In this document: in pieces, positions 12,799-48,910 of the stretch | How positions within the stretch are numbered: the stretch's first letter is position 1 | Layout: every line of letters begins with the position of its first letter | Source of the DNA: Octopus vulgaris | Lineage: Eukaryota | Reading direction: 5' to 3' | DNA length: 64,000 bases | NCBI GenBank assembly: GCA_951406725.2 | Contig: OX597817.1 | Span: 3,410,001-3,474,000 of the forward strand | Made by a program: the position numbers and the translations under genes | The notes under the pieces: generated by a model | Database searches by the model: none | Told to the model about the DNA's origin: nothing | What the model saw: the letters and a program-made list of their open reading frames with translations, nothing else

Positions 12799-12801
<3 letters not shown>

Positions 12802-12991
12802 TAAAACCATAGCACTTAAAAGGCAAACAACGCAGGCAAAAGAGAAAGAAATGACGACAATCATTCTACATTAAGTCACCTACGGACGTACGTTCTGAAA
12901 CGTACGTCCGTAGGTGACTTAATGTAGAATGATTGTCGTCATTTCTTTCTCTTTTGCCTGCGTTGTTTGCCTTTTAAGTGCTATGGTTTTA

Positions 12992-12994
<3 letters not shown>
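12799..12994. repeat. Perfect 96-bp-arm palindrome (4-nt spacer) inside (TA)n; probable Penelope-like pLTR fold-back
   Basis: 12799-12894 is the exact reverse complement of 12899-12994; the centre carries GAAACG-tacgtc-CGTA, the 3' half of a hammerhead. Confidence 0.85.
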
Positions 12995-13058
<64 letters not shown>

Positions 13059-13164
13059 ATATATATATATATATATAATTATATATATATAATATATTTA
13101 TATATATAACATATTTATATATAATTATATATATATTTATATCGTTATATATATATTTTTTTAT

Positions 13165-13402
13165 GCGCCCTTTTAAATCCTAGCCAGGCTCATGGGCCCG
13201 GTTTCCCGGTTTCAATGGCGTATGTGTTCCCCAGCTGGACGGGACGCCAGTACATCGCAGCGTTACTCATTTTTGCCAGCTGAGTGGACTGGAGCAACGT
13301 GAAATGAAGTGATTTTCTCAAGAACACAACGGTCCAAGGACTAAAACTACAATCTTACGATCATGATGCTGACACCCTAACCACTAAGGCACGCGCCACC
13401 AC
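13165..13402 (-). mobile_element. tRNA-derived SINE related to family B
   Basis: ccctaaccactaaggcacgcgcc head; tail agccaggctcatgggcccggtttcccggtttc shared with 18400-18480. Confidence 0.8.
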
Positions 13403-13526
13403 TATATATATTTACACGCACACACACATATTTATATCTATATATTTATATATATTTATCTGTATATATATTTGTATATATATATATTTATATCTATATA
13501 TATTCATATATAGATTTATATATATG

Positions 13527-13588
<62 letters not shown>

Positions 13589-13751
13589 TTTGATTTTGAT
13601 TTGATTTTTCCAGTTTCAGCTTATGAGCTGTGGCCATGCTGGGGCACCGCCATTATATATATATATATATATATATATATTAGTTACTATTTATTATTTG
13701 ATTGAACGTCACGCATCCATTTCGAAGTATATATATGCGAGTGCGTGTGTA

Positions 13752-13790
<39 letters not shown>

Positions 13791-14621
13791 GTTGCGTGTG
13801 TGTATGCGATTTACTGGTATTTTGAGCTTCTTCGACGTAAAAATATTTTTTGTAACCGCGACCGTCATAGAATCAATAAAATGTGTACTAAGTCTGATAC
13901 TATCCATGAAAATCGGAGAAGGCTTCTCCCCAGCATGGCTGCAAGCAAACTAATGCCGTTGTTGAAGGAATACGGGAGGACATAATATAAACACACAGAC
14001 ACACACACTCACCCCACCCACAGACACATGTACATACACAGCGAGCTGCCCACTGTGAAATGTTGGAACCAAATTTGTATAAACAGGTTATGAAATTACC
14101 GCCAAAATAAATGTCTCTTTTTCCAAAAAGAAATACATACATATGAAATATATTCGTTTGTGAAAAAATTATTTACTTTTTGTAATAAATCATATGTTAA
14201 TTCACGGCAAAGAAAAACAGCTTCGATTTAATTTTGATGCGAACAAAACCAAAACAATATATGCTTCACAAAAATACATGAATAGACCCAAATATGTAAT
14301 GATCAGGAGAGGGAAATGTTTCACTTATTTGAGTGATTTTTCAACCGATGAAAAAGATAAAAAAACAGAAAACGAAATATTATATTCCTCAAAGAATATA
14401 TTTTATAACTTAAGAAAGGAAAATTTACGGATTTGGAAGATGATAAGTAACCTTTTTTGGGCCTCATATTTGTTGTGTCTCAATAGAGACAGTAAAAACT
14501 ATGAGATAAGATGAAAAAACTTAACAGGTAAACTTAGTGCACAGTTGTTCCAAGAGAACCAAGTGGTTGGATTTACCTTAAACAGAAGGAAATGGTGAAG
14601 GAAATGTATTCAATTATATAT

Positions 14622-14926
14622 GGAGGCACGTGGCCTAGTGGTTAGAGCAGTGGATTCCCGGTCGAGGGATCGCGGGTTCGTATGTCAGACCGGGCGGTGT
14701 GTGTGTTTATGAGCGAAACACCTAAGCTCCAAGCGGCTCCGGCAGAAGGTCATGGCGAACTTCTGCTGACTCTTTCGCCACAGCTTTCTCTCACTCTTTC
14801 CTCATGCATCTTTCAGCTCACCTGCGACGGACCGGCGTGCCGTCCAGGTGGGGAACCTATACGTCAAGGAAACTGGGAAACCGGCCCTTATGAGCCAGGT
14901 GAGGCTCGAGATGGAAAGAAAAACCA
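14622..14926 (+). mobile_element. tRNA-derived SINE family B with 12-bp TSD
   Basis: A-box tggcctagtggtt, B-box ggttcgtat; TSD attcaattatat at 14608-14619 and 14927-14938. Confidence 0.88.
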
Positions 14927-16830
14927 ATTCAATTATATCAGCAGAAAGTTATGAATGGGCTCATATTCCGCCAGCGAGAAAATATCGACAGCATGGAGAG
15001 GAATAGTAACCTCCTCTGGACATGATAGATACGTCACATCTCAACAAGAAAGCTACGAATTTGCTATTCAGGAACTGCATAGCGATCCTAAATATCTGAC
15101 TAATAAGAGGGAAAATGATGCTTCCAAGCCTCCACGCTGGGATAAATGTTGACTGTGCCATACCAATGTGGGAAAAATCGGTCGCGTTATTTTCTACTAT
15201 CAGCTACGAATTGAAAGAGAAAAAAGGTGTACCAGATGCATCTATGCTGAGTACAAGAAAGAAACCATGATTTTACAAATTCATAGATTGTAACTTAAAT
15301 TATCTTTTTTCTTTCTTTTCTCTCTAGCGAGCGATTTCAAAATTGAAAACTGATGAGGTTTTCCCCTTTACGTGGTCATTCGCATTTTACCATCTTAAAA
15401 GTAGGGCACGTTGAACTAGTTACACAAGTCGCTGGTATGCAAATACATGCTCAATTAGGATTAAACTGCATTAAACACAGAGTAATCCTAATTGACGAGA
15501 ATGTTTGAATCTTCAGTCGACCACTTTGCTTTTGTTCGGCTGACCGAATAAACTTTCTATACTTCACCTCAGGAACTGCGTACTTTTACTGCCCTTCGTT
15601 ACAATTAATATATGTACGTATGTATGTCTGCGTGTGTGTGCTTATATATATATATATTACTTATTTCAGTCACTGAACTCAGGCTATACTTGCATAGTGC
15701 GACTCCAGCGGTTGTTTTAGTCTGTAGAGTGTGTGCATATAATTTTAGTACACAGGTGCAATAGCTTGTACTCTGCAAGAGTAGTTAACCCTGATGATGG
15801 ATTAAATTTTGTACCCTAGAACAGGAACTGTTGCTCCAGTAGGCTTTTATATACAGTGAGGTTGCCATAGTCTTCAAGTACCAAATTTCACTATCAAGGT
15901 ATTGATTGTCCCGAAGCTGCAGTAGAAGACAATGGTATCTAACCTGGAATTATGTATTTGCTATGTAAAGTAAGTTAGAGGTGGGAGAGGACTCCGTGGC
16001 TTTGAAATTCGCTTCGTTGAATGAAAGCATTTTCAGTAGGTTTCATTCAATGGAACCACTTATTATATTAGTGTGTAAATTACCAATAATTCTACGGACA
16101 CTTAACGTGACTCTTTGGCAGAATCAGCGTGACACAGTGAGTGATAAAACTGGCTCTTTGATTATAGGTGCAATCCACCCGACGGAATTGCACACACTTT
16201 CCACTTTCAGTCGACCCAGTTTCATTCACATGTCTTATAGGTTGGCGTTGTGAACGTAGACACTCAAGATGTCAACCATTGAATTAGATTACTGATCTCA
16301 TGATTGCGAACGGAACTTCTTGGTCACTTATATATTCATGCATACACACATTTACTTCAGTCGATAAAATATATGATCAGTTGCATTTCATCCGCGACCG
16401 CTCCGACTTTTCTCTTTTAAGATACAGAGCGTGATATAAGGGAGGTTGGATCTCTATTCAAAGTAGGTTGAGTGACAACATAGACAATCCTTCGCTAGTT
16501 CCTTGTACCAATCGTATACTGAAATATTTTTACATTAACAACTGTTCTTACGCCTTATCTAAAAGAAGCAGAAGTTAAATCCTTATCAGTATCAGATTAA
16601 AAATAAAATTATCACCCACTGAACTTGAACTATTTATGCAACTACTTACAGTTGCAAGCTTACAATTGAGAAATTGCGTGTCAGACATTGACATTAAAAC
16701 GAATGAGCATTGTTTAATATCATTAGGAATATAATCAGGTCATCGTTATGTCACGCTGTCACGCTTGGTAATAAGGTTGTTCAAATGAAATTATGTGAGC
16801 TGATAGACGCAGCGTACCTAGATATCTATA

Positions 16831-16873
<43 letters not shown>

Positions 16874-17357
16874 GTGCGGGCGTGTGAGCATTGTATTTTA
16901 CATAGTCTCGTTTGTTCAGGATATTGAATTCAAATCCTAGCAGGTATCAACTTTTGGTTTTCATTCCGCTGATGACCTACGAAACTAGTACTGATGTTGT
17001 TCGCTCTGATCAAGTAGACTTATAAAGGAAGCATTCCCGCCAGAACAATCCCTCATTGTTAGAAACATTGTGTTTAGCTCTCTTGTGTTCAACTTCTTTA
17101 TTTACACTGTGACATTATTACATCATTTGCTCTTCATATTATCTTTGTTATTCGTAATATTGTCTTAAATACGAAAATGACAGTGTTATCTGTCTATTTT
17201 CTGGATATGTTTCCTTTATTTTTAAAGTTAACAAAATGTGGTTCGGGAGAAATTTTGTTTCTAGCAGGACGAGGGGCTTCGTAGAGACTCTCAATACATT
17301 TACTACTGTATGGGATAGTGAATGATTTCAGAATCCCTTAATAACAATTAGACTTTT

Positions 17358-17395
<38 letters not shown>

Positions 17396-17396
<1 letters not shown>

Positions 17397-17561
17397 GCCA
17401 TGATAGATCGTTAGCCACTACACACATTTTTTCTCTCCTTGTTTTTTTCTCTGTCCCTTTCTGTAGAAGAGCGTAGTCTCGAAACGTAAAAAACTTTTTC
17501 TATTCCTGAGCGTTATACTAACACCACCTGTCTTCGTCTCTTGTCTTTTTTAGTAAACTCT

Positions 17562-17564
<3 letters not shown>
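17396..17564 (+). mobile_element. Short (TA)n-embedded element with a variant minimal hammerhead (Penelope-like pLTR remnant)
   Basis: Flanked on both sides by (TA)n; cttt-CTGTAGA-a-gag cgtagt ctc-GAAA-cg-TA-aaa at 17457-17491; shares cctgagcgt with the 20316-20499 element. Confidence 0.6.
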
Positions 17565-17625
<61 letters not shown>

Positions 17626-17690
17626 GTATATAAAACATAAGTAAATGCAGTAAAAGAATTTGGAAAAGCTTTCTGTGGAGTAGCTAGTTG

Positions 17691-17781
17691 AACATAAGTT
17701 AATGGTTCTACCTCTTACATCTTTTCAGTCTGCGTGCAAAAGAGGCTGAAAAGATGTAAGGGATGGAATCATTAACATGTT
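17691..17781 (+). ncRNA. Pre-miRNA-like hairpin (candidate only)
   Basis: 34-nt arms 17698-17731 and 17743-17776: 29 WC pairs, 4 G:U, 1 C-A mismatch, 11-nt loop, basal aacat/atgtt. Confidence 0.35.
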
Positions 17782-17971
17782 ATTCCCATGGCAGTACAAT
17801 GTTACTGTGTCCCATTGGGGACATGGTGTCATTGTGTCTTTAAACAGCTCAAAGTCAGTCGCTGCACATATCAAGGAAATGCTCTTATCACCCTATCTAA
17901 TAATAGACAGCACGCATTTAAACTCCTCTAAATGGCTACAAATGTTAGCTCTCATATTCAGTGATAATTTT

Positions 17972-18154
17972 TTCTGGATATCTCAGTCTTACAAATATAA
18001 CAAAAAAAAAGCCCGTGTCCCCAAAAATTAACTACCTTCTTTTGTAACCAGATAATAATACTTCAACCCTGAATAATGAGATACAACTCAAACTACTGGA
18101 ATTATGCTACTACTAAGCACAAAACTCCCAGACAGTATCCGAAACATAGTCATC
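17972..18154 (+). repeat. Dispersed ~180-bp repeat, copy 1 (copy 2 at 23026-23202)
   Basis: Shared aatacttcaaccctgaataatgagatacaactcaaa...ggaattatgct...cagacagtatccgaaa. Confidence 0.85.
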
Positions 18155-18396
18155 CGGTTTACTAGCAACTATTCAATCACCAACAAATTTCAATCCCTAG
18201 TCCACAGATCCGTTCTCTACTAAACATTGCGCGTCAACTGTTTCAACAATGGTCACCGCTCGCCAGGGCTTGATAAATTACATACTACTCCGCTCAAGCT
18301 CTCTCGTCGCTGTTTCTTCACTCATTACTCATTCTGTGCTTCCTCTCCAAAACCGCGCTATGTCCAGATCTTTCTTTCCGAATGTAACAACACGTT

Positions 18397-18702
18397 CGTC
18401 GCCCTTTTCAAGCCCAGCCAGGCTCACGGGCCCGGTTTCCCGGTTTCTGTGGCGTATTTGTTTCCCCCAGCTGGATGGGACACCAGTCCATCGCAACGTT
18501 ACTCAAGAAACAGGAAGAGAGAGTGAGAGAAAGTTGTGGCGAAAGAGTATAACAGGGGTCGCCACCATCCATTGCCGGAGCCTCGTTGAGCTTTTAGGTA
18601 TTTTCGCTCAATAAACACACACAACGCCCGGTTTGAGAATCGAAACCGCGATCCTCCGACCGCGAGTCCGCTGCCCTAACCACTGGGCCATTGCACCTCC
18701 AC
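18397..18702 (-). mobile_element. SINE family B
   Basis: Reverse complement of the ggaggtgcaatggcccagtggttagggcagcggactcgcggtcggaggatcgcggtttcgattc head. Confidence 0.88.
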
Positions 18703-18924
18703 GTAACACACGTTGGAATTCCATTATTACCTACGTTTTTCTCTGAAGCATTCATTTTAAGCTTGATATCAACCGTATTTATCTCACCGGGCTCGGAGGA
18801 CTGGGAAAGTCATGGGCACGGTCCCTTCCTCCTGACCGATTCTGATGAACATCATATTACAAGAGATTTCTTTTCAGTTTCTGGATAGTATTTCCAGTTA
18901 AATTAATTTCATTTTACTTATCCT

Positions 18925-19190
18925 CTTATATGTTTCAGTCCAATGACTGTGGCCATGCTGGAGCACCGCCATTGTGATCATCTTTCCACTTTTCACCTTT
19001 GTCGAAGCGACTTCTGGTGAAGGATGTAGTTCGATGCTACATCCCTGTTTTGAGTTCCCTGCTTAGATATTGGCTCATCCGGGATCTCGGCGATCCAGAG
19101 GTCAAGTTCACGTTTGAAAACGTCTACATCTACTCCATGGAGGTTCCTCAGATGCTTCGGCAGACAGTTACTTGCGACATATCTTTTGAA
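18925..19190 (-). mobile_element. CR1-clade LINE 3' end
   Basis: NCLPKHLRNLHGVDVDVFKRELDLWIAEIPDEP is a CR1 ORF2 C-terminus; 3' UTR ends ggcggtgctccagcatggccacagtcattggactgaaac. Confidence 0.8.
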
Positions 19191-20258
19191 GAAGTTGATA
19201 ACATCATATTTATCCCTTTTCTCCCCTAACACGAAAAAATACATACTATGTATAAATCACATAGCAATTATAGATTTGTGTTTAAAAGGCAGAGTCAATT
19301 GAACTAGTATGAAAACAATACAAAGAGTTTAGGTCAAATCAGCTCAGTGAGTCTCATCCCTTTCCGAGGTGAAGCTCCAGAAGAAATTGATTCAACATTT
19401 CAAGTCAGTGTAACATAGGTCAATTTTTAAACTGTTATATCTATCGGAATGAGAGAATCAAAATAATTTGATCATAGACTTACGTGAGTACTGATGACTG
19501 TATACGAATCACATTATTTTTTAAAATAAATAATCAGACGTTCTACCAATACGGCTCGAAACAAAATTTTACTTTCTAATTCAACAAATTGATAAATCTA
19601 TATGACTTTTGATATAGTATTACTAAAAATTAGCAAAAAAATTAGCAAATCAATAAATAAACGTTGCTACCTTTAGTTTTTTGTTTGTCTGGTTATTTGT
19701 TTCTTTTTTTTTCTACACCTATGGTAATATATTTTCCTCAGTTTTATATTTCAAAATGTTTCCAGCTCAATGTTTAAGATGATATTTATTTTATCTAAAA
19801 ATGCGTTTTGAATGTTTACTGAAGAATGGAATAAAAATACAAGTAACACCATAAAAAAGAAGAACACTAAGGTAAAAAGCAAACAAAATAAAAAGCAAAT
19901 ATCCACATGAGATGAAACCTCTTCAGAACAGAAATTAAATTCGAGTAAATAAATATATAAATAGATTATCTTATATGTTTTTCCTGCAACATTAAAAAAA
20001 AATATCTGGATATACTATTTTAAAGTATTCCTCATCAACCATCTGCAAAGGTAGAGTAACTTCCCAGAACAGATCCATCGGTTTGCACTCACTAATCATA
20101 ATCAAAGGTCATAGATCTGTGACGGCACCAACAGCAGAGACCAGTAACGACCGAAGGTGGTACCCGTATGATTCTAAACTCAATGACATAAACGAACTAA
20201 AGGATTAAAGTTTTAAGGTACTAAAGCTGAAGCAAAAGCTGTTCTTTAGATAAATATG

Positions 20259-20315
<57 letters not shown>

Positions 20316-20316
<1 letters not shown>

Positions 20317-20499
20317 AAGTTAATCCAAACATGAAAACACAATAACGCGAGGATGTGGAACAAGTATAGTGTTATTGGACGCTCAGGAAAGGAAAGAAAG
20401 AAGGAGCATTTAACGTTTCGAGCGGAGCTCTTCGTCAGAAACTTAGAAAAAGGAAAGGTCAAAGGAAGGGAAGACGGAGGAAGAAAATCGCCAACGATA
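20316..20499 (-). mobile_element. Short microsatellite-embedded element with a minimal type-I hammerhead (Penelope-like pLTR remnant)
   Basis: Minus strand gttt-CTGACGA-a-gagc tcc gctc-GAAA-cg-TT-aaat (20408-20442); lies between (TA)n and (CA)n. Confidence 0.7.
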
Positions 20500-20933
20500 C
20501 ACACACACACACATAAACACACATATATATTACTCTTGGAAATAATAATTGCTGAGAATTTTTGAAAAGTGCTCAGTGATAAATTTGTAAGAATTTCGTG
20601 GACAATTAGTAAACTGCTGTTGTTCGATATCGTTAACTGTTTCACACGCACACACACACACACACACACACACTCACAGAAAGATAAGTAGATAGAGTAG
20701 ATTGAGAAGTTGGCGTTGCAAGTTAGGTTCACAATCAGTGCGTAGCGTCTGAGGCAAATGTCGATTGAGATAACCTTGAGAAGACCAAAGCCAGCGAGTG
20801 AAATTCGGCAGACAGAACGAATTTGCTTTTTAATCTTATTTTCACAACTATACAATAAAAACAGAAAGTAGCATGCCTGAGGCTGTTTAGTAATCCACGA
20901 TTATTCAGGAACACAATACAGATTTACAATATT

Positions 20934-21548
20934 CTTTTCTACTGTAGGCACAAGGTCCGAAATTTTTGGTGAGGCGGGGCAGTCGATTAGATCGACCCCA
21001 GTACGTAACTGGTACTTAATTTATCGAATCCGAAAGGATGAAAGGCAAAGTAGACCTCGGCAGAATTTGAACTCAGAAAGTAACGGCAGACGAAATACCA
21101 CTAAGCATTTCACCCAACATGCTAACGTTTCTTATTTCTTTATTGCCCACAAGGGGCTAAACATAGAGGGGACAAACAAGGACAAACAAAGGGATTAAGT
21201 TGATTACATCGACCCCAGTGCATAACTGGTACTTATTTTATCAACCCAGAAAGGATGAAAGGCAAAGTCGACTTCGGCGGAATTTGAACTCAGAACGTAG
21301 CGACGGGCGAAATACCTATTTCTTTACTACCCACAAGGGGCTAAACACAGAGAGGACAAACAAGGGCAGACAAACGGATTAAGTCGATTACACTGACCCC
21401 AGTGCGTAACTGGTGCTTATTTAATCGACCCCAAAAGGATAAAAGGCAAAGTCGACCTCGGCGGAATGTGAACTCAGAACGTAACGGCAGACGAAATACG
21501 GCTACGCATTTCTCCCGGCGTGCTAACGTTTCTGCCAGCTCGCCGCTT
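20934..21548 (-). mobile_element. Trimeric SINE family A (two tail-A units plus a terminal tail-B unit) with one TSD
   Basis: Three gaggtcgactttgcctttcatcc-type bodies; TSD tacagatttacaRtatt at 20917-20933 and 21549-21565. Confidence 0.88.
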
Positions 21549-23025
21549 TACAGATTTACAGTATTGCAACAGCTCTGTAGTCTTTTGCTTTAATCCTTCA
21601 TGGGGGGCCTTTTCTGCTCATGATTTCTCTGACAACAGCTTTATTACCACTATCCAAATTAGTTAAATACATTGATCCCTCTCTTTACTTCAGTCTGCAT
21701 TGTCATTTATATCTGCTAATTAGCTGGATCTACGCATTTTCCCTGTAGATTGCACCTGACGTTAAACGTGCTCTGCGCCTTATCCGAACATAAACTGTAA
21801 AATAAATAATGGACATAGCTCCGTTTGAAATATTCCTCTATATTTTCTAGAATTAAGAATCTACTATTCCTAAATTGGTTTCCAAGAAATATGCTAGCGT
21901 AGCACAAAAGAAGAAACGCATCTAGAAATCATCGCTCCTTGGTGTTAATTTTCAGATGACAATATTTTATTCATGATCAAAGTTGTCCTATTCTGATTTC
22001 AAAATCCCGCTTAGATCACTATCATACTGAAATAAACTCTTCTGGATAGACTGATAACTACTCAAAAGGGCACCGAATTGAAAGGAGTTTACGTCTTTAT
22101 TGAGGAGGGACAATCAAAGGGTAAATAGTGCTCAATAGATAACTATGGTGGTGATGGTGGGCAGAAGACATTTTGCGATTCTTGTGGTGTTGAAATTGTT
22201 GCTTAGCATCATATTATTCTGATTGAGCATGCCTATGATGAAAGAAATTCCAGTTGAAACCACCACATTCTTTCGACGTAGTTTATTTTAGACTACATTA
22301 CCCAGTATGGATCGCCTTTTTTTTTCAAAAGTGGTAGGATGTGATTTGATTGCCACTTTTTTTTTCACAATATCACAAATGTCCTTATACATTATTATCG
22401 TCTTGGAAGGTGGTGATATTGTATAAACAAATTAAGAATACAGTTCCTATTATTGTCTGCAAAGAGGTAGGACACTGTATATAGGAAACAGGAAGTCCCT
22501 CACTTCAGTGGAATTGGGAGCCAGATGAGATTAACGTTTTAGTAGACTGGAGTTCTTAGGATAGAGCTTAAATTGGTGGAGGTAAAATATGCTGTAGAAT
22601 TTATATATGTACATGTGTGTGTGTTATCAGAAAATATTTCAGGCTAAAGGATTGCCTGTATTATTTGTTACATGATTTACAGGAAAAGAAAACACTACAT
22701 AAAATGATTACAATGGAGAGATAAGGATAGCACAGAAGGTTGAAGGGTAGTGATCATTATAGGAATAGAACAGACAAAATTGTCGGGAAAAATTTATAGG
22801 TGATGATGGACCAAGAATAGAACATTTTCAGCAAGACAACTTTATCAGCTTTGCAGCTGAAATAAAAGGTGTAATATATTTGCTTAAGACTGAAGAAACC
22901 AAATTTCAGTTTTTTTTTGCTGTTTAAATTCATTGTCACCATTTTCTTCAAGTAATCCGCCAAGAAGTGTGAGCGAGGATCGAGTATGACGATACTGGCG
23001 TAATTTTTTATTCAGTGATAGCTTC

Positions 23026-26991: not shown

Positions 26992-27115
26992 TTATCTATC
27001 TATCTATAGCTAGCTAGCTATTTCGCTCAGTAAAAATATGTTTAATCACACTGTGTAAATATAACCTGTCAATAAATTAGAAAAATTTTCATAAATGTAG
27101 AATGAATAATCAGTT

Positions 27116-27164
27116 GACATAACTTGTTTCGACTTTACCAAGCCTCATCAGAGAACGTTATGTC
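27116..27164 (-). ncRNA. Minimal hammerhead ribozyme motif (stem I disrupted)
   Basis: CTGATGA-ggctt ggta aagtc-GAAA-caag-TT on the minus strand. Confidence 0.5.
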
Positions 27165-27390
27165 TTAATTAAATTTACAAAGTAAAGAACCTATTTTGAG
27201 ATGAAGGACAAACTATTTCTGGCGTAAATAATTTACATATGGTGCAAACTTGACCAGCAGGATTTAATAACAAAAGTGCCAAGGCAGCGTTGTTTAGAAT
27301 AACTACGGATATGAAATTCATATATATATATATGATTGATTGATTCTAGTTTCAGCTTATTGAGCTGTGGCCATGCTGGGGCACCGCCAT

Positions 27391-29884: not shown

Positions 29885-31250
29885 ACTTCACAAAACATAG
29901 AAATGGAATTTGGGACAAATAATTGTGTTACATTTCAATAAAAAGAAAGACGATAATAGGAAAGGAAATGGGATAATGATACTTGGTGATAAATTAATGA
30001 AGGCTGTTGAGGTGTATGGATATAAGCACTGAGATATTACTAGAAGCCGACAAGGTTAAAAATAGCAAAGAAGATTAAACTGATATTGGTATTAAAGACA
30101 AAATTATATGTAAGAAGTATATTATGGGATGTATCACGTATAAGATATAGAATAAGTATTTTCCAACGGAATAAAAAAGAACTCAAGAAGTTAAACAGAA
30201 ACACACGGAAAATGAAAACAGTATTACGCCCGAAAAGTAATATTCACATGCTTTTCTTCCATTGCCCAGGAAGAATGGAAGAAAATATTTGATAAGTTGC
30301 GGAGAACAATTTGATATGGCATGTTGCTAATCATCCAGAACCTTGGTGGTTGGTGTAAACTTATCTCAGACAATTAATAGAATATGAACATAAGAAATTC
30401 AGAAAAGAGTAAAATATGACATCATGGTGTGAAAAACAATGTTATGATAGTTTATCAGAGATGTAAATAAGCGAGAGTCATATGATTGGCTGCGAAAAAT
30501 CAAACTTAGCGGTTGGAACAAGTGCTAATTTGTGCAACACAAGCAAAATCACTTAAAACAAAGTATTATGAATATCACATCGATAAAAATACTGAGTTAC
30601 TTTTATGTAGTTACACAGTAAGCAAATACAGTAGACGTGTACAAATAGAATATAAAATATTGCAAGTATCGTTCAAAAGAAACTGTGGGAAATATAATTG
30701 GGACAGACACAGTAGGTGGTACGGACACCAAACCAATGCAGTGGAAGAAAAGAAAATGAGGAAATTGTGGGATTTCAACATTCAATGCGATCAAGTCGTT
30801 GAGGCAAGAAGACCCGATGTTATTAATTGTTACTGTGAATGTGAAAGAAAGACACTACACAGCGACTGATAGATATAATGTCTTCAGGAGATAATAACTG
30901 ATATAGAATCTTCAGTAAGTGAGAAGAACAAGGAAAGAATGAGAAAAAAAAACAGGACTTGGAAAGAGAAGTTGTAAATGACTAAAACACGAAAAAGTTG
31001 AAATTGTTCCAGTGATCGTGGGCGTTCTTGATACATTCGGAAAGAAATGAAATCATGGATAGAGAAAATTAGAATCGAGATTCAAACAGAACACACTAAA
31101 CTGTATTACTTTGGAACTGCAAGGACCCTAAGGAAGGCACTTGAAACTTTAGCTGATAAGAGAATTTCAAAAGACTCATCGTTAGTGGCTATGACTCTCT
31201 CCTTGGGTTGTAGTAACGACAGCAGATGCTTGCCATATGGAAAGTACAAC
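29885..31250 (+). mobile_element. Highly degenerate R4/Dong-like non-LTR retrotransposon 3' part (RT end plus restriction-like endonuclease)
   Basis: MEFG..C; LWDFNIQCDQVVEARRPDVI (RPD REL motif); KVEIVPVIVGVL; GTARTLRKAL; followed by a trinucleotide tract. Confidence 0.75.
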
Positions 31251-31420: not shown

Positions 31421-33314
31421 AGTATGGTGTAAATGTAGATCCAGCTATGCTGCGAAAGCATTGATGTCCATGGAAATAATAAAGTATCATATTTTTTCCT
31501 CAACTATTATGTAAATGTGTCAAACGTGCATAATTTTCTTTTTATATTTCATGCAGTTATTATCCTATTATTGCATCGTCTACATATTTAAGATAACTAA
31601 CTGGCATTAGATATTACTTAGAATGTCTTTGGAAAGATTCCAAACATAGTACCATTGTTTACTCGTATGTGAATTTTTCATTTATGCAGCCCTAACATTT
31701 GGCAAAAGAGAAAAAATACGAAATACGAAATGCGAATATATTTCTTCAAACACTCCTTGCCAACTATTTACAGACTGTATTTTCCTTGTCTGATTTGATA
31801 ATGACTTGGTGCTTTACTGATTTTTGATGCGTCAGTTTTCTATGTAACGTATCTATTTTCTGTTTTTGTAATATTCAGTGTTTGTTACAAAGCTAGAAGC
31901 AAAGTTCTCGCATTCATAAAATAGCCAATCACTGAATTCATTCCTATCCCGTATAACTTATCCTGTTAAAACTTAAAGTCTACCAGTAAACATTTTAATA
32001 AATATTTCTTTTAAACTTTTCTTTTCTTTAAAATAAATTCAGTTTACTTTTATTTTGCTCCTTTGCCAAATATTTTTTATACTAGTTACTTTTAATGTTA
32101 GAGACTATTACATAAATATGTATATAATAAGTGTTTAGAATATGAATTTGTTGAACAGCGAATTTCAAAAAGAAAGCTATGTGACAATGAGATCTGTTCA
32201 CAGAAAATTTTTGTGAGTGATACACGCGCAAGTACGCTCGTTCGCACTCACACACACCAAAGAACTTCTGAATTGAAATTTTTCTTTTATAGTTGGAAAA
32301 AAAAAAAAAAAAAGAAAGATCAAAGTTAATTTACATGCTCAATGAATCCATAATTAGATCTTTAAGTGGCAAATATGAAGATTTACAAATCAATCGATAA
32401 TGAATATATTGAAATGGAAACTTTCAAAATCTTTGCCAGATACATGATAGGCAAATCTTTGTATATATGTCATCATATCCTCCCTCAAAACTGCCAGTGA
32501 TTTATAGGCTGATGGTTTAAAAAAAATCTGTTGGTCATTGTTATGTGCACTGGCAATATAATATATCATTATTTTTACAGATAGCACGACCACAACGAAA
32601 CCTCTGTGTATGCTGCAAATGTCACACAGTGGCATCACGGATGTGAACTCAAGATGGAGATGCAAATTTATTAGCTATTAAACCAATAATACATACACAC
32701 ATACATACATACATACATACATACATACATACATACATACATACATACATAGATACATACATACATGCATAAATGCATACATACATACATACATACATAC
32801 ATACATAATAATATAAATAATATATGAATATATGCTTATATACATACATATATGTACACACCTACATATATATGTATATATACAGGCATATATGAACACA
32901 ATGAGAAATGAAAACATAAAAACAAAAACATTGGAACAAACTTTTTTTCACACAACGATAAAACAGAGAAACAAGACATATAACACAAGGGATATTCCCC
33001 TTCATCAGTTGTCCCTGTTTCATCTACTCCGCGTTTCGAAGGTAAGGACAAGACGCGACTTCGTTGAAACAGTCCTTCCCGCAAAGCAAATTAAATAAAA
33101 AAAATTTTTTTTTGCGGAGGGATAAAAGTGGTAAAAACTAGAACAAGACAGTAAGAACAAAACAAGACAGTAAAAGATAGAACAATGAGAATAACACAAT
33201 AAAAACAAACGATGAGGGCTGTTAAGACGATGGAAAAATTATTCTGAACACTTAATACATACATACATACATGTAACAAAGTGTAATTCGGAGTATTTGA
33301 AACAAATTTAATGA

Positions 33315-33369
<55 letters not shown>

Positions 33370-33372
<3 letters not shown>

Positions 33373-33577
33373 GGTCCCGGGTTGATTCGGGGTTAACCAC
33401 AGTAAGTAAGGTACTCAATACATAGCAGAGTAAGATTAATTTATTATATAGAAGGAGCTTCTACAGGACTAGTACTGTTTCATTCAAGAGAAATCTTCAG
33501 GAAGCTTCCTGAAGATTTCTCTTGAATGAAACAGTACTAGTCCTGTAAACTCCTTCTATATAATAAATAAAATAAAA

Positions 33578-33580
<3 letters not shown>
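33370..33580 (-). mobile_element. (TA)n-embedded fold-back element with a complete type-I hammerhead motif (Penelope-like pLTR remnant)
   Basis: 43-bp perfect arms 33462-33504 and 33505-33547; minus strand agcttc-CTGAAGA-t ttc tctt gaa t-GAA-acag tactagtc ctgt-A-gaagct. Confidence 0.75.
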
Positions 33581-33625
<45 letters not shown>

Positions 33626-34263
33626 TATATTATCTATCATTACTGAACTTAACAGTGATCGGCATCCAGACCGTCGTAGCCGTTAGGAAACCAAATCTTA
33701 TGATTCAGATGTTTAGATGTAACAAGTTATATTTGTTTAAAACATTTGCCAATATTTTACCGAAGTTTATATCCGTTGTCTAATACTCACAGACATGAGG
33801 GGAATAATGATTGGTCCTCTGGTAGAAATTCTCTGTGGAACCAAACATCATTAAAAGATGAAATCTTTGTTTCATTAGTCGAGACATTAGAAATGTCTTG
33901 CTCCCATGCCAGATACACTCAAACACACAACAAACACACATATAAACATTCATATATATTTATGTGTGTGTGTGTGTGTGTGTGCGTGCGAGTTTGAATA
34001 TATATATATATATATATTTATGCATGTACGTATATAAATACATACATACATGCATACATACATATATATGATATATAAATATTTATGTATACACATAGTG
34101 AGAGAGAAAGAGAGAGGGATAGAGAGAAAGGGATAGAGAGAGCGAGAGAGAGAGAGAGAGAGAAAAAAAAGGCGAGTGAGAAAAACATATCTGTCAACCT
34201 AATTCCAGCATAAATATATTTTTAAAATTTCATCAGATTTGTATAGGATTTCTTCTTAAATAA

Positions 34264-41066: not shown

Positions 41067-41079
41067 TGTAATATATATT

Positions 41080-42022: not shown

Positions 42023-42056
<34 letters not shown>

Positions 42057-42454: not shown

Positions 42455-42705
42455 TGACACATACATACATACATACATACATACATACATACATACATAC
42501 ATGCATACATACATACATACATACATACATACATACATACATACATACATACATACATACATACATACATGCATACATACATACATACATACATACATAC
42601 ATACATACATACATACATACATACATACATGCATACATACATACAAACATACATACATACATGCATACATACATACATACATACATACATACATGCATAC
42701 ATACA

Positions 42706-42739
<34 letters not shown>

Positions 42740-42752
42740 CATATATACATAC
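42455..42752. repeat. (CATA)n microsatellite
   Basis: Direct reading. Confidence 0.95.
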
Positions 42753-43770
42753 AAATGTGCGTGTCTCTGTGATTGCGTTTCCTTTCTATTGCTTGACAAC
42801 CGGTGTTGTTTTGCTTACGTTTTCGCAAAAGCAACCGACGGAATATGTACTTGACTTAAAAATAAGAACCGGGGTCGAATGAATTGCCTATATACCCTTT
42901 CTCCGCAGCTAATACTTTGGCAACTAAATAAGAAATCATTAATTTAAAATAGTTTGCTTAAAAAAAATAATCGATAATGCAGTCTTCTTAACTCAGATGT
43001 TATAAGGTCAGTTTTGATTATTCTGTCCTCTTAACTCAATTTGCTAAAGTCATTTATCATTTTCTAGTCTTGTAACCGAACAAATACTTTACTGTCTATG
43101 TATCCATCTCTAATTTAACTGAAACGAAACTCGTCCTTCTCTTTTTATCTCATTACTTAATTTGAGGCTAACACCTATTTGATCTCATTTACTTTAGTGA
43201 CAGTTATTGTTCCGTTGCTCCATTCAATTCTTAATTGCAGGTTTTATTATAACATCGGCATTTATTGTATCAACTAGCGTTTATTGTAGTTTCAATGCAA
43301 GTGAAACTTGCATAAGTTTCTCTAAGAAGGCGATAACTAATACTTTATTCTTCCCCTTTTATTATTAACTGACACCAATATGCTCCCAATTTGCTCCCGG
43401 TCACTGCATTTGGTGAATTCGTTAGTACATTAGTTTGACAACCGAAAGGTCGTCATTTCATTTTCCGCCTCCAGTCATGTGCTGAATTGCAAGCAAAGAT
43501 TTTTAGCTCTCGGTGGCTGAATCTGCTTAGCGTGTAATATGTTCTCGGTGACTCAGATCGATCAGATCTATGTTCAAAGGTGTTACGTCATATTTCCAGG
43601 CACAACGCATTCGGGATTATATTATTCAATATGCACTTTCTTCTAAGTAGTGTGTGATTTAAAGGAGATATATATCAAAAGGAGATATATTTAAGTGTAA
43701 TTTCTAGCAGGTCGGGTAAACAAGAAAAAGCTCACCTGATAGCTTTTGTGTTAATATATTGTTGTTGTAA

Positions 43771-44714
43771 GGCGGTGAGCTGGCAGAATCGTTAGCGCGT
43801 CGGGCGAAATGCGTAGCCGTATTTCGTCTGCCGCTACGTTCTGAGTTCAAATTCCGCCGAGGTCGACTTTGCCTTTCATCCTTTCGGGGTCGATTAAATA
43901 AGTACCAATTACGCACTGAGGTCGATATAATCGACTTAATCCGTCTGTCTGTCCTTGTTTGTCCTCCTCTGTGTTTAGCCCTTGTGGGTACTAAAGAAAT
44001 AGGTATTTCGTCTGTCTTTTTGTTCTGAGTTCAAATTCCACCGAGGTCGACTTTGCCTTTCATCCTTTCGGGGTCGATTAAATAAGTACCAGCTACGCAC
44101 TGGGGTCGATATAATCGACTTTATCCGTCTGTCTGTCCTTGTTTGTCCTCTCTGTGTTTAGCCCCTTGTGGGTACTAAAGAAATAGGTATTTCGTCTGTC
44201 TTTTTATTCTGAGTTCAAATTCCACCGAGGTCGACTTTGCCTTTCATCCTTTCGGGGTCGATTAAATAAGTACCAGCTACGCACTGGGGGGTCGATATAA
44301 TCGACTTAATCCGTCTGTCTGTCCTTGTTTGTCCTCTCTGTGTTTAGCCCCTTGTGGGTACTAAAGAAATAGGTATTTCGTCTGTCTTTATGTTCTGAGT
44401 TCAAATTCCACCGAGGTCGACTTTGCCTTTCATCCTTTCGGGGTCGATTAAATAAGTACCAGTTACGCACTGGGGTCGATATAATCGACTTAATCCGTCT
44501 GTCTGTCCTTGTTTGTCCTCTCTGTGTTTAGCCCCTTGTGGGTACTAAAGAAATAGGTATTTCGTCTGTCTTTATGTTCTGAGTTCAAATTACGCCGAGG
44601 TCGACTTTCCTCCTTTCGTGGTCGATAAATTAAGTACCAGTTACGTACTGGGGTCAATCTAATCGACTGGCCCCCTCCCCATAAATTTCGGGCCTTGTGC
44701 CTAGAGTAGAAAAG
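43771..44714 (+). mobile_element. Pentameric SINE family A concatemer (~184-186-bp period) with one 16-bp TSD
   Basis: One head, four body+tail-A units, one terminal body+tail-B unit; TSD aatatattgttgttgt at 43753-43768 and 44715-44730. Confidence 0.92.
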
Positions 44715-45256
44715 AATATATTGTTGTTGTTTAGTCCCAGGTCATCTCTAACCGAGTAAACACTGACTAAAGACGATTTAGCCTGGACTGTTTCCTAGTT
44801 TCTTAGTCATTGTACATTTAGGCCTACAATTACGCACCCAATATATCCATTGCTTAAATCAAGCGTCGCGTGTGAGTTGAGTACATATTAGCTGCTATTT
44901 CTGATAAGGCGAGTGACTTCGTATGGAATTCTTTTTGATTTCTGGGGATTAAAACGTAGTTGAGTCCGAACCATATAAGTCCGAACCTACTGTACACGCT
45001 CATTTTATTTCTAATCAGATAAAATTTTTGAGTTCTCATCCTTGCATCTTCTGATGATAAATGTCACTAGATCAATTCATTATTATTTCTATAATATATT
45101 TCTAATACAAGCACAAGGTCTAAAATTTGAAAGTAGTTGTTCGTTGATTAAATTGACTTCGGTACTTTATTTTATCGGCCCGAAACGATGAAAGGCAATG
45201 TCGGCCTAGTATGATTTGAACTCGAAACACCGCAAGATATTTTTTCCAAACGCACT

Positions 45257-45665
45257 CTCTCTTTTACTCTTTTACTTGTTTCAGTCATTTGACTGCGGCC
45301 ATGCTGGAGCACCGCCTTTTAATCGAGCAACTCGACACCGGGACGTATTCTTTGTAAGCCTAGTACTTATTCTATCGGTCTCTTTTGCCGAACCGCTAAG
45401 TGACGGGGACATAAGCACACCAGCATCGGTTGTCAAGCAATGCTAGGGGGACAAACACAGACATACAAACATACACGCACACACACATATATATATACAT
45501 ATATACGACGGGCTTCTTTCAGTTTCCGTCTACCAAATCCACTCACAAGGCTTTGGTCGGCCCGAGGCTATAGTAGAAGACACTTGCCCAAGGTGCCACG
45601 CAGTGGGACTGAACCCGGAATCATGTGGTTGGTAAGCAAGCTACTTACCACACAGCCACTCCTGC
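45257..45665 (-). mobile_element. Full-length CORE-type SINE family C
   Basis: Reverse complement of the 36736-37078 type; flanked by cgcact on both sides. Confidence 0.88.
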
Positions 45666-47108
45666 GCACTAACGATTTTTAATGTAATTTCAACTGATTA
45701 ACAATTACTTTTCGATTCAATGCATTAGGTAAGTTAGCCCTGTACTTAACGATATGATCTTAATGCATGAAACATTTTCTAATGTCATCAGTTAATTCGT
45801 TGTACACTACAAACATTTTTTGAACTGCTTGGAATATATGGAACCTACTTTAAAAAAATGCAGTTTTAATTTCGCTGAGAGAAGTAAACAAAATAATTAA
45901 ACAATAGGTTTTTATCTTCCCATGTGCAAAAAATGTGATCGATTTGACTACTTTTTAGAATTCTTAGACTTTTATCAGAAAAAGAATCCCTACCCTTCCT
46001 TGTGTAGAAAGTAGCTGCTTATAGTAATTTTCTGTGTATGCAAACGGGAATCGTATTTTACATTTCAAATTATTCGAAGTAGTTGTATAATGCATCATGA
46101 ATAAATGAATTAATCCACGTTATCAATACACATGCTTTTATGCAAATTGGACTGACTAGTTTAGCTGAGTTTGCATACGCTATAAACGGCTATAATCTAT
46201 TAATATCTTTCTTAGTAGACAGAAGATAGGTATTCGTTCAGTCATGAATGCATAAAATAATATGAACCAAGTCAGTTCCAACTTACGTTTTCTGCCCACG
46301 GTGAGAACAAACCTTAGGTGGAGCCACCTTGTTTGCAATTGTATGGCTATTAAAAAAATGTATGCCTTAGATTTTGAAATGTCATTAGTTGTTTCTTAAC
46401 TTACACTATTAAACTTCAGATAATACTACTATGAACCAAATCTGTGTCCTGCATTTCCTATTCAGTAGCTGCTGTCTATCAACCACCCGACAGTTTAAAA
46501 TCTAGGATAGGCTTTATCATACACTGTGCACTGTATTTATTGCCGACTACTATATTTATATTGCTTGTCTCTAATAAGAAAGAAAAGGACACAGACGAGA
46601 ATTCTCTGCTATTAGATTTTGCTCAAATTACTTTCAATCAACAGTGCCTATTTAATCCTTTTGCTAAGCTTTGTTGATTAAGCTAATAAAGACAAAATAA
46701 AATAAAACAAATAGCAATACTTATATCCTGCTTTTCTTTTTATAGAATACACATTACTAATTATTTAGCTGAACACTAATGAATAAGCAAAATAATACCA
46801 GACAGAGATGTATTTCGTTACCGAACATATACCAGTGGTGCACAAACTGACGAACACCAGTCTCACCCCAAGTATTAGGGGAAAGTTTTTGACTCCTCAC
46901 TCTCATTATTAGTGAGGGGACAACGTAGTTTGCACCCATATAACTCACCTTTTATCGCTATGATGTTGGGCAAATTAAAAAAAGTTTAAAATCATCTATA
47001 CTTTATTAAACATGGCAATTTGTTTTTCCCCCAACCTTTTTTCAATCCGCATAAACTGTTCCTATACTGACCTACACTGACATTTAATCATAATTTATAC
47101 GTACTCAT

Positions 47109-47145
<37 letters not shown>

Positions 47146-47814
47146 AGGTGATACACATACACACAAACAGACACACGCGCACGCATACACACACACACAC
47201 ACACACAATCTTAAGTATTTTGATACTGTTTCGCTCAAAGATTAAAATTGTTGTGTTGGAAGGTTATCTTTCTTTGCATGAAAACATTTAGTGACACAAC
47301 CAACCAACCAACCACACAATGATGCAAACATAGATGTGCAGTCTTAGGTGAAAAAATTGTAGGTCTTGAAGTATAAAATTTCTCTTTTTCATTGATGTTG
47401 AATGGAACATTCACATCTTCTGATCTGGAGATCTCTACACCAAGATATGATTTTTGTTTCCTCTTCTAAGAAACTATGCCAAGCTTATTGCATTTGCATT
47501 TGGTGAAAGTTTTGACGGAAATTTTCTATTAATATTTCATGTATGGAAAAGTGTGAATATAATTCAACGTCAGAAATGTTTATTATATTCATCCTAAGAC
47601 AGGCTTTCTGACGAATGGCATTTATAATGTGTTAGCAGCAACACCGTGTCGCATTGGAAGGTAATATATTTTGATGACATTTTCGAGAAATTTGCAATCA
47701 CATTTGTAATGTCTTCAACCGAAATATGACATAATCGACATTTCCAGTCGTATCTTGGGAGTTTAAAGGCTCCACTCTCTATTTTATTCAGCGGTTATGT
47801 ATGTATGTATGTGT

Positions 47815-48066
47815 GGAGGCGCAATGGCTCAGTGGTTAGGGCAGCGGTCTCGCGGTCGGAGGATCGTGGTTTCGATTCCCAGACCGGGTGTTGTATGTGT
47901 TTATTGAGCGAAAACACCTAAAGCTCCACGAGGCTCCGGTAGGGGGTGGTGGCGACCCTTGTTGTACTCTTTCGCTCCAACTTTCTCTCGCTTTTTCTTC
48001 CTGTTTCTTGAGTAACGATGCGATGGACTGGGCTCATGAGCCTGGCTAAGCTTGAAAAGGGCGCAT
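47815..48066 (+). mobile_element. SINE family B
   Basis: ggaggcgcaatggctcagtggttagggcagcgg head; tail cttgaaaagggcg. Confidence 0.85.
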
Positions 48067-48086
48067 AAATATGAATATATGTATGT

Positions 48087-48462
48087 ATGATTCTGACATG
48101 CAATGTCTGTGCAAGATCCTGCCTCAGTAAAGCTGGACTCAAGAGTCATCTTCGTAGTCATAAAACGAGACAGATGAGTGACAACCTGGCCACTGGTGGT
48201 GGTGTAACACACCATACTAATCATATCTGTCGGGCATGTGGAAGAGAGTGTAATTCGACAGGAGGACTTAAACGACATGCAAAGATACATGAAGCCCAGT
48301 TACAACTACAGCCGGCTATTACCAGTAAAGGTCTTAGTTGCCAATTTTGTACAAGACATTGTAGATCTTTAGCTGGGCTAAAAAGTCACGTTCGATCACA
48401 GCACCAATAACAGTTAAGCTTCGTACAATGGCCATACTCGATAACGAGGGGGGCAACCATAA
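48087..48462 (+). mobile_element. RTE-type LINE 3' end encoding three C2H2 zinc fingers, with (ATGT)n tail
   Basis: ORF 48087-48410: CNVC..C.S.AGLKSHLRSH, CRAC..C.S.GGLKRHAKIH, CQFC..C.S.AGLKSHVRSQH; short UTR hairpin ctcg ataa cgag; atgt repeats on both sides. Confidence 0.7.
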
Positions 48463-48751
48463 CATGTATGTATGTATGTATGTATGTATGTATGTATGTA
48501 TGTATGTATGTATGTATGTATCAATGTATGTATGTATGTATGTATGTATGTATGTATGTATGTATGTATGTATGTGTGTGTGTATGTATGTATGTATGTA
48601 TGTATGTATGATCAATTCAAGTTGAAACAAACAAGATTTTAGTGTTTTAAACTAAATATTGGGAGAAACAATTAACAAAACAATCATGTGAGATAAAGTA
48701 TTCCTTTTTGTGTGACAACTGTAGAAAACATATACTCTCACAGAGGTTGAT

Positions 48752-48813
<62 letters not shown>

Positions 48814-48840
48814 AATGTAATATGTGACAATTATTCGGTA

Positions 48841-48910
48841 GCCATGATAAAACTCCGAGTTTCGGATGACGAGGTGGAAATCCACGCCGCCATCTCTTCA
48901 GTTATCCGGC
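48841..48910 (-). ncRNA. Type-I hammerhead ribozyme motif with long stem II, next to (TA)n
   Basis: gataa-CTGAAGA-gatggcg gc gtgga tt tccac ct cgtcatc c-GAAA-ctc g gag-TT-ttatc. Confidence 0.7.

What the first reader, a model, noticed from the sequence alone, without database searches (positions are those of the whole stretch)
12799..48910. Family of microsatellite-associated, hammerhead-ribozyme-bearing mini-elements (Penelope-like pLTR remnants) across the window
Seen: at least five short non-coding islands carry a CUGANGA-type core, a stem II, GAAA, a short (mostly palindromic) stem III and a GUH site. They are at 17457-17491 (+), 20408-20442 (-), 27116-27164 (-), 33456-33506 (-) and 48841-48910 (-), with a half motif at 12897-12917. 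Most sit inside or beside (TA)n tracts. Established: Penelope-like elements carry minimal type-I hammerheads in their pseudo-LTRs that can cleave as dimers through palindromic stem III, and some PLE clades insert into simple repeats. Inference: these are several distinct non-autonomous ribozyme-bearing retroelement families, about one per 10 kb here, that repeat annotation would probably mask as low complexity. If the region is intronic, sense copies could cleave host pre-mRNA.
Basis: partly seen in the sequence, partly recalled or inferred. Interest (0 to 1): 0.8.

Follow-up and report, generated by a model that had tools for sequence, protein, structure and literature searches.

The report
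Hammerhead-bearing ends of Penelope retrotransposons
Six short DNA islands beside TA repeats carry whole, damaged or half hammerhead-ribozyme motifs and are likely leftover ends of Penelope-like jumping genes, a well-known kind of element; two are folded back on themselves, and none is predicted to cut a host RNA on its own.

Summary
The motifs are real: 3 strict type I hammerheads against 0.07 expected from shuffles, and all six sites lie 66-186 bp from a (TA)n tract. Quality is uneven. 20438 is a clean minimal hammerhead; 17461 is its relative with a core mutation; 27151 lacks stem I; 12897 is a half motif; 33500 sits in a palindrome.

The 33500 family has hundreds to thousands of contigs per DNA run, joins (TA)n at two 3' ends, and varies only at unpaired hammerhead positions. 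The 20438-type motif recurs in 108 distinct metagenome loci, with stem covariation, inverted copies and, in 10, a Penelope-like endonuclease ORF upstream. No such ORF is in the window.

Verdict: Penelope-like pseudo-LTR ends, a known kind, new members in an octopus-like genome. One possible addition: short copies start at a fixed point about 30 nt behind a TATA-like box, which suggests by-product cDNAs of the element's own transcript rather than separate non-autonomous families. Cleavage of host pre-mRNA is unlikely.

The parts
12799..12994 (.). Perfect head-to-head palindrome between two (TA)n tracts (arms 12799-12894 and 12899-12994). Holds only the 3' half of a hammerhead on +: GAAA 12897-12900, self-complementary stem III 12900-12907, C17 at 12908. 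No CUGANGA box or stem II.
17396..17564 (+). 169-bp island between (TA)17 and (TA)34; minimal hammerhead 17458-17491 (C3 at 17461, site after A17488) with a changed A6; same family as 20317-20500.
20317..20500 (-). About 184-bp island; intact minimal hammerhead 20442-20408 (C3 at 20438, extra A after A9, G10.1-C11.1, 4-bp stems I and II, no loop III, site after U20412); 3' end joined to TA/CA repeats. 5' boundary approximate.
27099..27168 (-). Damaged canonical-type hammerhead: C3 at 27151, stem II 4-5 bp starting G-C, stem III 3 bp, C17 at 27116, stem I broken. Element boundaries unknown.
33369..33506 (-). Full-length arm of a high-copy element: hammerhead 33506-33456 (6-bp stem I, C3 at 33500, stem III 4 bp with an 8-nt near-palindromic loop, site after A33462), long 3' end at (TA)25.
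33503..33571 (+). Inverted second arm, turning at the AGCT tetramer in stem I (33503-33506); stops at the family's short 3' end, then an A-rich stretch and (TA)n; two bases lost from its stem I 3' strand.
48810..48960 (-). Hammerhead 48910-48841 (C3 at 48901, 5-bp stem I with a further helix, long stem II, near-palindromic stem III with a 1-nt loop, site after U48851); TATATAA 45 nt upstream of C3; 3' end at (TA)14. 5' boundary unknown, may reach the hairpin at 49065-49114.

Best explanation
The islands are 140-200-bp pieces holding whole, damaged or half type I hammerhead motifs next to (TA)n tracts, and they are likely the pseudo-LTR ends of several endonuclease-bearing Penelope-like retrotransposon (PLE) families. 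Inferred mechanism: the element's GIY-YIG endonuclease nicks a TA tract; its reverse transcriptase starts at one of two fixed sites 60-130 nt downstream of the hammerhead; it copies uncleaved RNA through the hammerhead and stops early, often switching to the opposite strand, which leaves a head-to-head palindrome. Shown: motifs, TA junctions, two 3' ends, high copy number and recurring fold-back junctions for the 33500 family; the 20438-type motif behind PLE ORFs in other animals. Inferred: the enzymes, the RNA intermediate and the PLE parentage of these particular families. The ribozyme was probably selected in the parent elements; the copies here are probably inert.
For: Enrichment over shuffles and TA proximity. 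33500 family: 1556, 7220 and 782 contigs laid on 164 bases in runs X1, X4, X5 (two organism codes); loose ends of (TA)n at 33439 in 4 of 4 runs; of 6 variant positions at >=5% share, 4 are in the hammerhead and all 4 are unpaired non-core positions (13 such of 51; chance 0.003, computed after the fact); 8 joints mark other inverted copies. Both arms of the window's palindrome carry the same minority base at 33473/33536 (the other base has 71-97% of depth), which fits copying from one molecule. The 20438-type pattern hit 120 metagenome loci (108 distinct): position 17, not in the pattern, is non-G in 107 of 108; stem I pair 2 pairs in 31 of 37 family representatives against 17.6 shuffled (0 of 5000); 10 of 108 have a sense PLE protein match ending about 100 nt (9) or 680 nt (1) upstream, with Pfam GIY-YIG or RVT_1 matches in 3 of them; 20 of 101 have an inverted copy upstream. 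The same architecture, inverted copy, optional tail and (TA)n bias are described in PMC4209133, PMC8557442, PMC3846280; internal initiation on uncleaved RNA in PMC11167929.
Against: No PLE ORF remnant in the window, and none of these six families was itself linked to an ORF; the link comes from other animals and shares only the ribozyme (longest match 33 nt). Copy number was tested for 1 of 5 families. Only 1 of 108 metagenome loci has a dinucleotide repeat within 250 nt, so those relatives do not show TA targeting, though short-read assemblies break at such repeats. 27151 does not fit the minimal type. No cleavage data. The two-site 'tail' is about 70 nt here against 30-40 nt in print.
Confidence: 0.85

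Rival explanations
1. They are self-standing non-autonomous elements with their own master copies (mini-PLEs or dispersed retrozyme monomers), transcribed as such and moved in trans by PLE proteins.
For: 17396-17564 and 20317-20500 have similar lengths and both extend 62-65 nt upstream of C3. Non-autonomous PLE derivatives and solo retrozyme monomers are described. 27151 resembles a canonical retrozyme-type hammerhead.
Against: No tandem array holds any site. In the largest metagenome family the short copies lack the TATA-like box found in the long, ORF-linked copies, so they would have lost their likely promoter. The 33500 family continues upstream in other copies.
Confidence: 0.2
2. The palindromes at 12799 and 33436 are assembly or library fold-back artefacts, and the hammerheads are otherwise ordinary truncated copies.
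For: No listed contig matches the 33504 junction exactly.
Against: In one search, 3 of the 32 listed pieces bridge 33504 with 31 or more letters on each side (runs X1, X4) and 8 joints show similar inversions. The 33436 arms differ by two lost bases and end at the family's two different 3' ends. 21 of 34 short copies of an unrelated family have the same arrangement.
Confidence: 0.07
3. The motifs act on the host: sense copies inside an intron self-cleave and cut pre-mRNA.
For: 20438 and 48901 have intact cores and all stems; the motif density is about one per 10 kb.
Against: No host exon recognised. Stem I pair probability is 0.01 or less in context for the 4 sites with a stem I; the hammerhead fold costs 4.9-7.9 kcal/mol at four sites and 66.7 in the 33436 palindrome. 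Minimal hammerheads did not cleave as monomers and only weakly as dimers; one PLE ribozyme needed its protein.
Confidence: 0.05
4. Chance matches in AT-rich, repeat-rich DNA.
For: Loose descriptors give 1.65 hits per shuffle, and 3365, 8103, 10946 and 61864 are probably of this kind; 27151 could be partly so.
Against: 0 of 300 shuffles reach the observed counts; family data and covariation.
Confidence: 0.02

Closest known systems
Minimal hammerheads in pseudo-LTRs of metazoan PLEs (Cervera and de la Pena 2014, PMC4209133; parts 1-2 of 4 read)
   Same: Type I, extra base after A9, G10.1-C11.1, self-complementary 15.2-16.2, mostly found as single dispersed motifs attributed to truncated PLEs, some as opposite-strand pairs. 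20438 and 17461 fit exactly.
   Different: 33500 and 12897 have longer palindromic stem III; 33500 lacks G10.1-C11.1; no cephalopod example in the parts read; no ORF beside these copies.
Neptune-type and other C-terminal-endonuclease PLEs (Craig et al. 2021, PMC8557442; Arkhipova et al. 2013, PMC3846280; passages read)
   Same: (TA)n bias, inverted 5'-truncated copy, palindrome at the junction, optional tail, TATA-like box in the pseudo-LTR, solo pseudo-LTRs. ORFs linked to the 20438-type motif elsewhere carry a CxxC linker.
   Different: Only the terminal 140-200 bp are present; tail about 70 nt; clade of these families not determined.
Poseidon of Anolis (Frangieh et al. 2024, PMC11167929; parts 1-2 of 4 read)
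   Same: Two internal reverse-transcription start sites downstream of the hammerhead define the ends; uncleaved RNA is the template; AT-rich targets.
   Different: There the ORF starts inside the hammerhead; no such ORF start was found here.
Non-LTR retrozymes (PMC7229834, passages; bioRxiv 10.64898/2026.07.22.740005, parts 1-2 of 5)
   Same: Small, non-coding, type I hammerhead, related to PLE pseudo-LTRs; 27151 resembles their canonical motif.
   Different: They are head-to-tail tandem repeats; these are solo or head-to-head.
Naiad PLEs (PMC8557442 and its supplement table)
   Same: (TA)n preference, present in Octopus.
   Different: Naiads lack canonical hammerheads and are old remnants in cephalopods; none of 5 short motifs from these sites occurs in the supplement text searched.

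Membership tests
Endonuclease-bearing PLE | RT plus GIY-YIG ORF in the same element | tested here: not met
   None in the window: Pfam on read-through frames of 1-5922, 5989-10720, 11390-12349, 32900-33990 and on 247 stop-free ORFs, plus tblastn and a profile from PLE proteins. So these copies are not complete PLEs; they are filed only as likely fragments.
Endonuclease-bearing PLE | Other copies of the same families linked to a PLE ORF | not testable with these tools
   No genome held; contigs laid are mostly 50-100 nt. The same ribozyme form is ORF-linked in 10 of 108 loci from other sources.
Endonuclease-bearing PLE | Inverted 5'-truncated copy at the 5' end | tested here: met
   2 of 6 sites; 8 further joints in the 33500 family.
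Endonuclease-bearing PLE | Two alternative 3' ends (optional tail) | tested here: met
   33500 family ends at 33439 and near 33370, 61 and 131 nt from C3; tested for this family only.
Endonuclease-bearing PLE | Insertion into (TA)n or AT-rich targets | tested here: met
   weak for 27151
Endonuclease-bearing PLE | Target-site duplication | not testable with these tools
   Flanks are microsatellite; no empty site available.
PLE minimal hammerhead | Conserved core CUGANGA, GAAA, UH | tested here: met
   Met at 20438, 27151, 33500, 48901; A6 changed at 17461; first box absent at 12897.
PLE minimal hammerhead | Extra base after A9 and G10.1-C11.1 pair | tested here: inconclusive
   Both met at 20438 and 17461; 27151 has the pair without the extra base; 33500 has U-U; 48901 has a bulge.
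PLE minimal hammerhead | Self-complementary stem III that allows a dimer | tested here: met
   Predicted duplexes: -11.2 (12897), -15.2 (33500), -9.7 (48901), -2.3 (17461, 20438) kcal/mol; not palindromic at 27151.
PLE minimal hammerhead | Self-cleavage | not testable with these tools
   No assay; contigs cannot show RNA ends.
Non-LTR retrozyme | Head-to-tail tandem repeats, each with a hammerhead | tested here: not met
   No array holds a site.
Naiad PLE | No canonical hammerhead in the pseudo-LTR | tested here: not met
   Full motifs at 3 sites.
Rfam hammerhead families | Score at the gathering threshold | tested here: not met
   Best 22.4 bits against 52 at 27151; nothing at 3 other sites scanned; 17461 and 12897 not scanned alone.

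The most novel reading that the evidence does not exclude
Most PLE mini-copies are neither random 5' truncations nor separate non-autonomous families but integrated 'strong-stop'-like cDNAs: the pseudo-LTR holds a TATA promoter whose transcript starts at the edge of hammerhead stem I, the reverse transcriptase starts 60-155 nt further down the same RNA, runs off its 5' end and often jumps to the opposite strand. That would fix both ends, explain the head-to-head palindromes from a sense template, and put the hammerhead at the very 5' end of the element's mRNA. Support: 34 of 50 copies of the largest metagenome family start 1-13 nt before C3 (mode 8), none at 14-74, with TATAAA at -37/-38 in long copies; 21 of the 34 and 0 of 16 long copies have an inverted piece upstream; in the 33500 family TATAAA lies 29 nt before stem I and 8 of 8 joints restart within 6 nt of that edge. 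Against: no start site was measured; the search pattern cannot see copies starting after C3; the joint table is biased towards that place; 12897 turns inside the ribozyme; 17461 and 20438 extend 62-65 nt upstream with no TATA; the hammerhead helix itself could stall the enzyme; Drosophila Penelope has a TATA-less promoter.
Probability: 0.4. Interest if true: 0.6.

Novelty: new member of a known kind. Interest (0 to 1): 0.33.

Why it matters
As an annotation it is ordinary: dispersed minimal hammerheads from Penelope-like elements are described across animals, and my searches found no account of them in octopus, which adds a host, not a kind. The part worth following is mechanistic. How PLEs make pseudo-LTRs and head-to-head inversions is called unresolved in PMC8557442 and PMC3846280, the latter invoking an antisense template. 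A fixed 5' end about 30 nt behind a TATA-like box gives a simple sense-template explanation that a 5'-end mapping experiment and a genome-wide count could test, and a very high-copy family is available for it.

Tried and rejected
No own genome was available, so no genome-wide count. The repeat finder was swamped by the (TATG)n tract; a masked self-BLAST replaced it. A family-specific pattern found nothing in metagenome contigs and the shorter one nothing in viral or prokaryotic contigs. No RNA holder listed; the 109 contigs from run X7, whose RNA status is a guess, are not used as evidence of expression. Summed contig depth is not a copy number and none is given. A covariance model of the 20438-type motif found only the two window copies it was built from; next best E 0.058; island-against-window BLAST found no further copy. 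61864 (core box plus 9-bp hairpin) is part of a long imperfect hairpin with no stems I or III: rejected. 3365 lies in a Ty3/gypsy-type coding region: probably chance. My guess that stem I of 33500 extends beyond 6 bp in other copies was wrong. Apparent protein matches across the hammerhead came from one mispredicted chimeric protein: not evidence for an ORF start there. Stem I pairs 4 and 5 show no covariation, pair 3 is marginal (213 of 5000), pair 1 is uninformative. PMC12602865 gave nothing relevant. PMC6962438 counts 235 hammerhead loci in giant squid without linking them to PLEs in the passage seen. Earlier scan notes: nothing for this genome or these sequences; 8 of 358 word matches shown were other systems and were not used.
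Full report
Setting. The window is AT-rich animal DNA full of microsatellites and short repeats. The best named relative of its LTR-retrotransposon ORF at 2092-2631 is from Octopus sinensis (63%), so an octopus host is likely; no tool named the organism. No genome was held. No host exon was recognised; Pfam matches were mobile-element domains and one zinc finger.

Observation. A type I hammerhead descriptor, set after I had seen the sites, finds 3 strict hits (20438, 33500, 48901; C3 positions, minus strand) against 0.067 in 300 shuffles, none reaching 3. 17461 (+) passes only with one core mismatch (A6 to U; that A6 is needed for cleavage is recalled). 27151 has core, stem II and stem III but no stem I, and alone gives a sub-threshold Rfam match (Hammerhead_HH9, 22.4 bits against 52; 1 of 4 sites scanned). 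12897 is a half motif. All six are 66-186 bp from (TA)>=6, where 6-11% of unmasked sequence lies. 17461 and 20438 share the ribozyme and a downstream block and are one family; no other island has a second copy in the window.

Palindromes. 12799-12994 has two identical 96-bp arms between TA tracts and turns just before GAAA, so the first core box and stem II are gone. 33436-33571 turns at the AGCT in stem I; its arms are 69 and 67 bp.

The 33500 family. I had one read-laying run and used 33372-33535 with runs X1, X4, X5, X7, 4 of 24 listed. 1556, 7220, 782 and 109 contigs were laid. Six positions vary at 5% or more of summed depth; four are in the hammerhead: position 7, two in loop II, one in loop III. 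None is in the core or a stem (13 free positions of 51; chance 0.003). Loose ends read (TA)n at 33439 in all four runs (12, 20, 12, 1 contigs); depth continues to the window copy's own end near 33370. So there are two 3' ends, 61 and 131 nt from C3, and the window's two arms use one each. Only 24 of 83 loose-end rows were shown. Behind 33506 other copies continue into unrelated upstream sequence with TATAAA 29 nt before stem I. Eight joints, one contig each, show other inverted copies whose sense arm restarts at 33502-33509; the laid stretch favours detection there. Three of 32 listed pieces bridge the turn with 31 or more letters a side, none identical to the window. Both window arms carry the minority base at 33473.

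The 20438-type motif elsewhere. Unconstrained positions behave like a hammerhead: position 17 non-G in 107 of 108; among 37 representatives I chose by family, stem I pair 2 pairs in 31 against 17.6 shuffled, stem II pair 4 in 32 against 25.9, pair 3 marginal, pairs 4-5 not (one search agrees, with its caveat on relatedness). Ten of 108 have a sense PLE protein match upstream, nine from one family or its close kin ending about 100 nt before C3; Pfam gives GIY-YIG for L022 and L073 (just under the curated cut-off) and RVT_1 for L027. Twenty of 101 have an inverted copy upstream by a strict test. These loci share only the ribozyme with the window, and 1 of 108 has a dinucleotide repeat nearby.

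Fixed ends. In the largest family (51 loci, 50 with enough flank) 34 copies start 1-13 nt before C3, mode 8; none starts at 14-74; 16 run on past 75 and most of those show TATAAA or a near match at about -37. Of the 34, 21 have inverted family sequence upstream and 13 have unrelated flanks that share nothing; 0 of 16 long copies do. 3' ends cluster at about 85-100 and 139-156 (47 copies). A TATA-like motif lies at -34 to -39 in 10 of 12 further loci that I picked after viewing, with a motif list set after viewing. At 48901 TATATAA is at -45. This suggests, but does not show, a transcript that starts at stem I. Counter-cases are listed in the section on the most novel reading.

No ORF here. Pfam on read-through frames of four regions and on 247 stop-free ORFs of 50 aa or more, recalled motifs, tblastn with 57 PLE proteins and a profile from 18 of them found no PLE remnant.

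Activity. In context, stem I has pair probability 0.01 or less at the four sites that have one; the hammerhead fold costs 4.9-7.9 kcal/mol at 17461, 20438, 27151, 48901 and 66.7 in the 33436 palindrome (3.7 for one arm alone). These are secondary-structure predictions without tertiary contacts or protein. Stem III is self-complementary at five sites. In print, a minimal hammerhead did not cleave as a monomer and weakly as a dimer (PMC4209133), and the Anolis Poseidon ribozyme needed its protein and was not needed for insertion (PMC11167929). Cleavage of host RNA by these copies is therefore unlikely.

Comparison. PMC4209133 (parts 1-2 of 4 read) describes the motif and its dispersed single copies. 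PMC8557442 (passages, supplement searched) and PMC3846280 (passages) describe inverted copies, junction palindromes, the tail, (TA)n bias, a TATA-like box and solo pseudo-LTRs. PMC11167929 (parts 1-2 of 4) gives two internal start sites. PMC2377424 (passages) reports a TATA-less promoter in Drosophila Penelope. PMC7229834 (passages) and bioRxiv 10.64898/2026.07.22.740005 (parts 1-2 of 5; supplements not seen) define retrozymes as tandem repeats. PMC13282606 (passages, supplement) lists 190 Penelope-like families in Octopus vulgaris. I found no report of octopus PLE hammerheads or of 5' ends fixed behind a TATA box in nine searches; the library lacks most subscription journals and repeat databases, where either may be recorded.

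Verdict. Real, several families, known kind: likely PLE pseudo-LTR ends (0.85), filed as fragments because the defining ORF is absent here. Interest 0.33; the fixed-5'-end reading, probability 0.4, would deserve 0.6.

Noticed in passing
window 49065-49114: 50-bp near-perfect hairpin 165-215 nt upstream of the 48901 hammerhead, 26 bp from a TA tract; may be the palindromic 5' junction of a longer pseudo-LTR.
   Followed up: no
window 20446-20441 (-) and metagenome loci such as L013, L029, L044, L070, L099, L110: A pyrimidine-rich stretch and an AG lie just before the hammerhead core at 20438, and AG precedes TCTGA in 14 of 37 family representatives (counted by eye); recalls the intron end at helix I in Drosophila virilis Penelope. 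The changed core at 17461 also creates an AG after a pyrimidine tract.
   Followed up: no
window 48899-48888 (-); L027, L029, L099: An AAGATGGCG-like motif (YY1-type site, label recalled) sits at the base of stem II at 48901 and just behind the TATA-like box in several other families.
   Followed up: no
window 2092-5528 (+): Broken Ty3/gypsy-type LTR retrotransposon (DUF7083, RT, RNase H, integrase).
   Followed up: partly
window 20928-21555, 43766-44719, 51554-51952, 56318-56606, 60706-60869, 9283-9525: A 184-bp SINE-like unit in tandem arrays of 1 to 4.6 copies at many places.
   Followed up: no
window 13608-13650 and 27344-27387: Two copies of a 44-bp element, 95% alike, each followed by a TA tract; a second microsatellite-linked family without a hammerhead.
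   Followed up: no
window 11390-12350 (+): 3' end of a LINE-like element ending in a 6-bp hairpin followed by GAAAC and then the long TA tract; no hammerhead core box upstream.
   Followed up: partly
window 61864-61943 and 17691-17781: Imperfect hairpins of 77 and 91 bp; the first begins with CUGAUGA and folds far better than shuffles (z -6.8).
   Followed up: partly
window 53674-54225 (+), 10359-10700 (+), 30510-31100 (+), 48075-48410 (+): Fragments that look like mariner-type transposases (HTH_48 match at the second), an R4/Dong-like LINE end (recalled look) and a C2H2 zinc-finger ORF.
   Followed up: no
L101:260-420: Metagenome locus with hammerheads of the 20438 type repeated head to tail at short spacing, a retrozyme-like array.
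   Followed up: no
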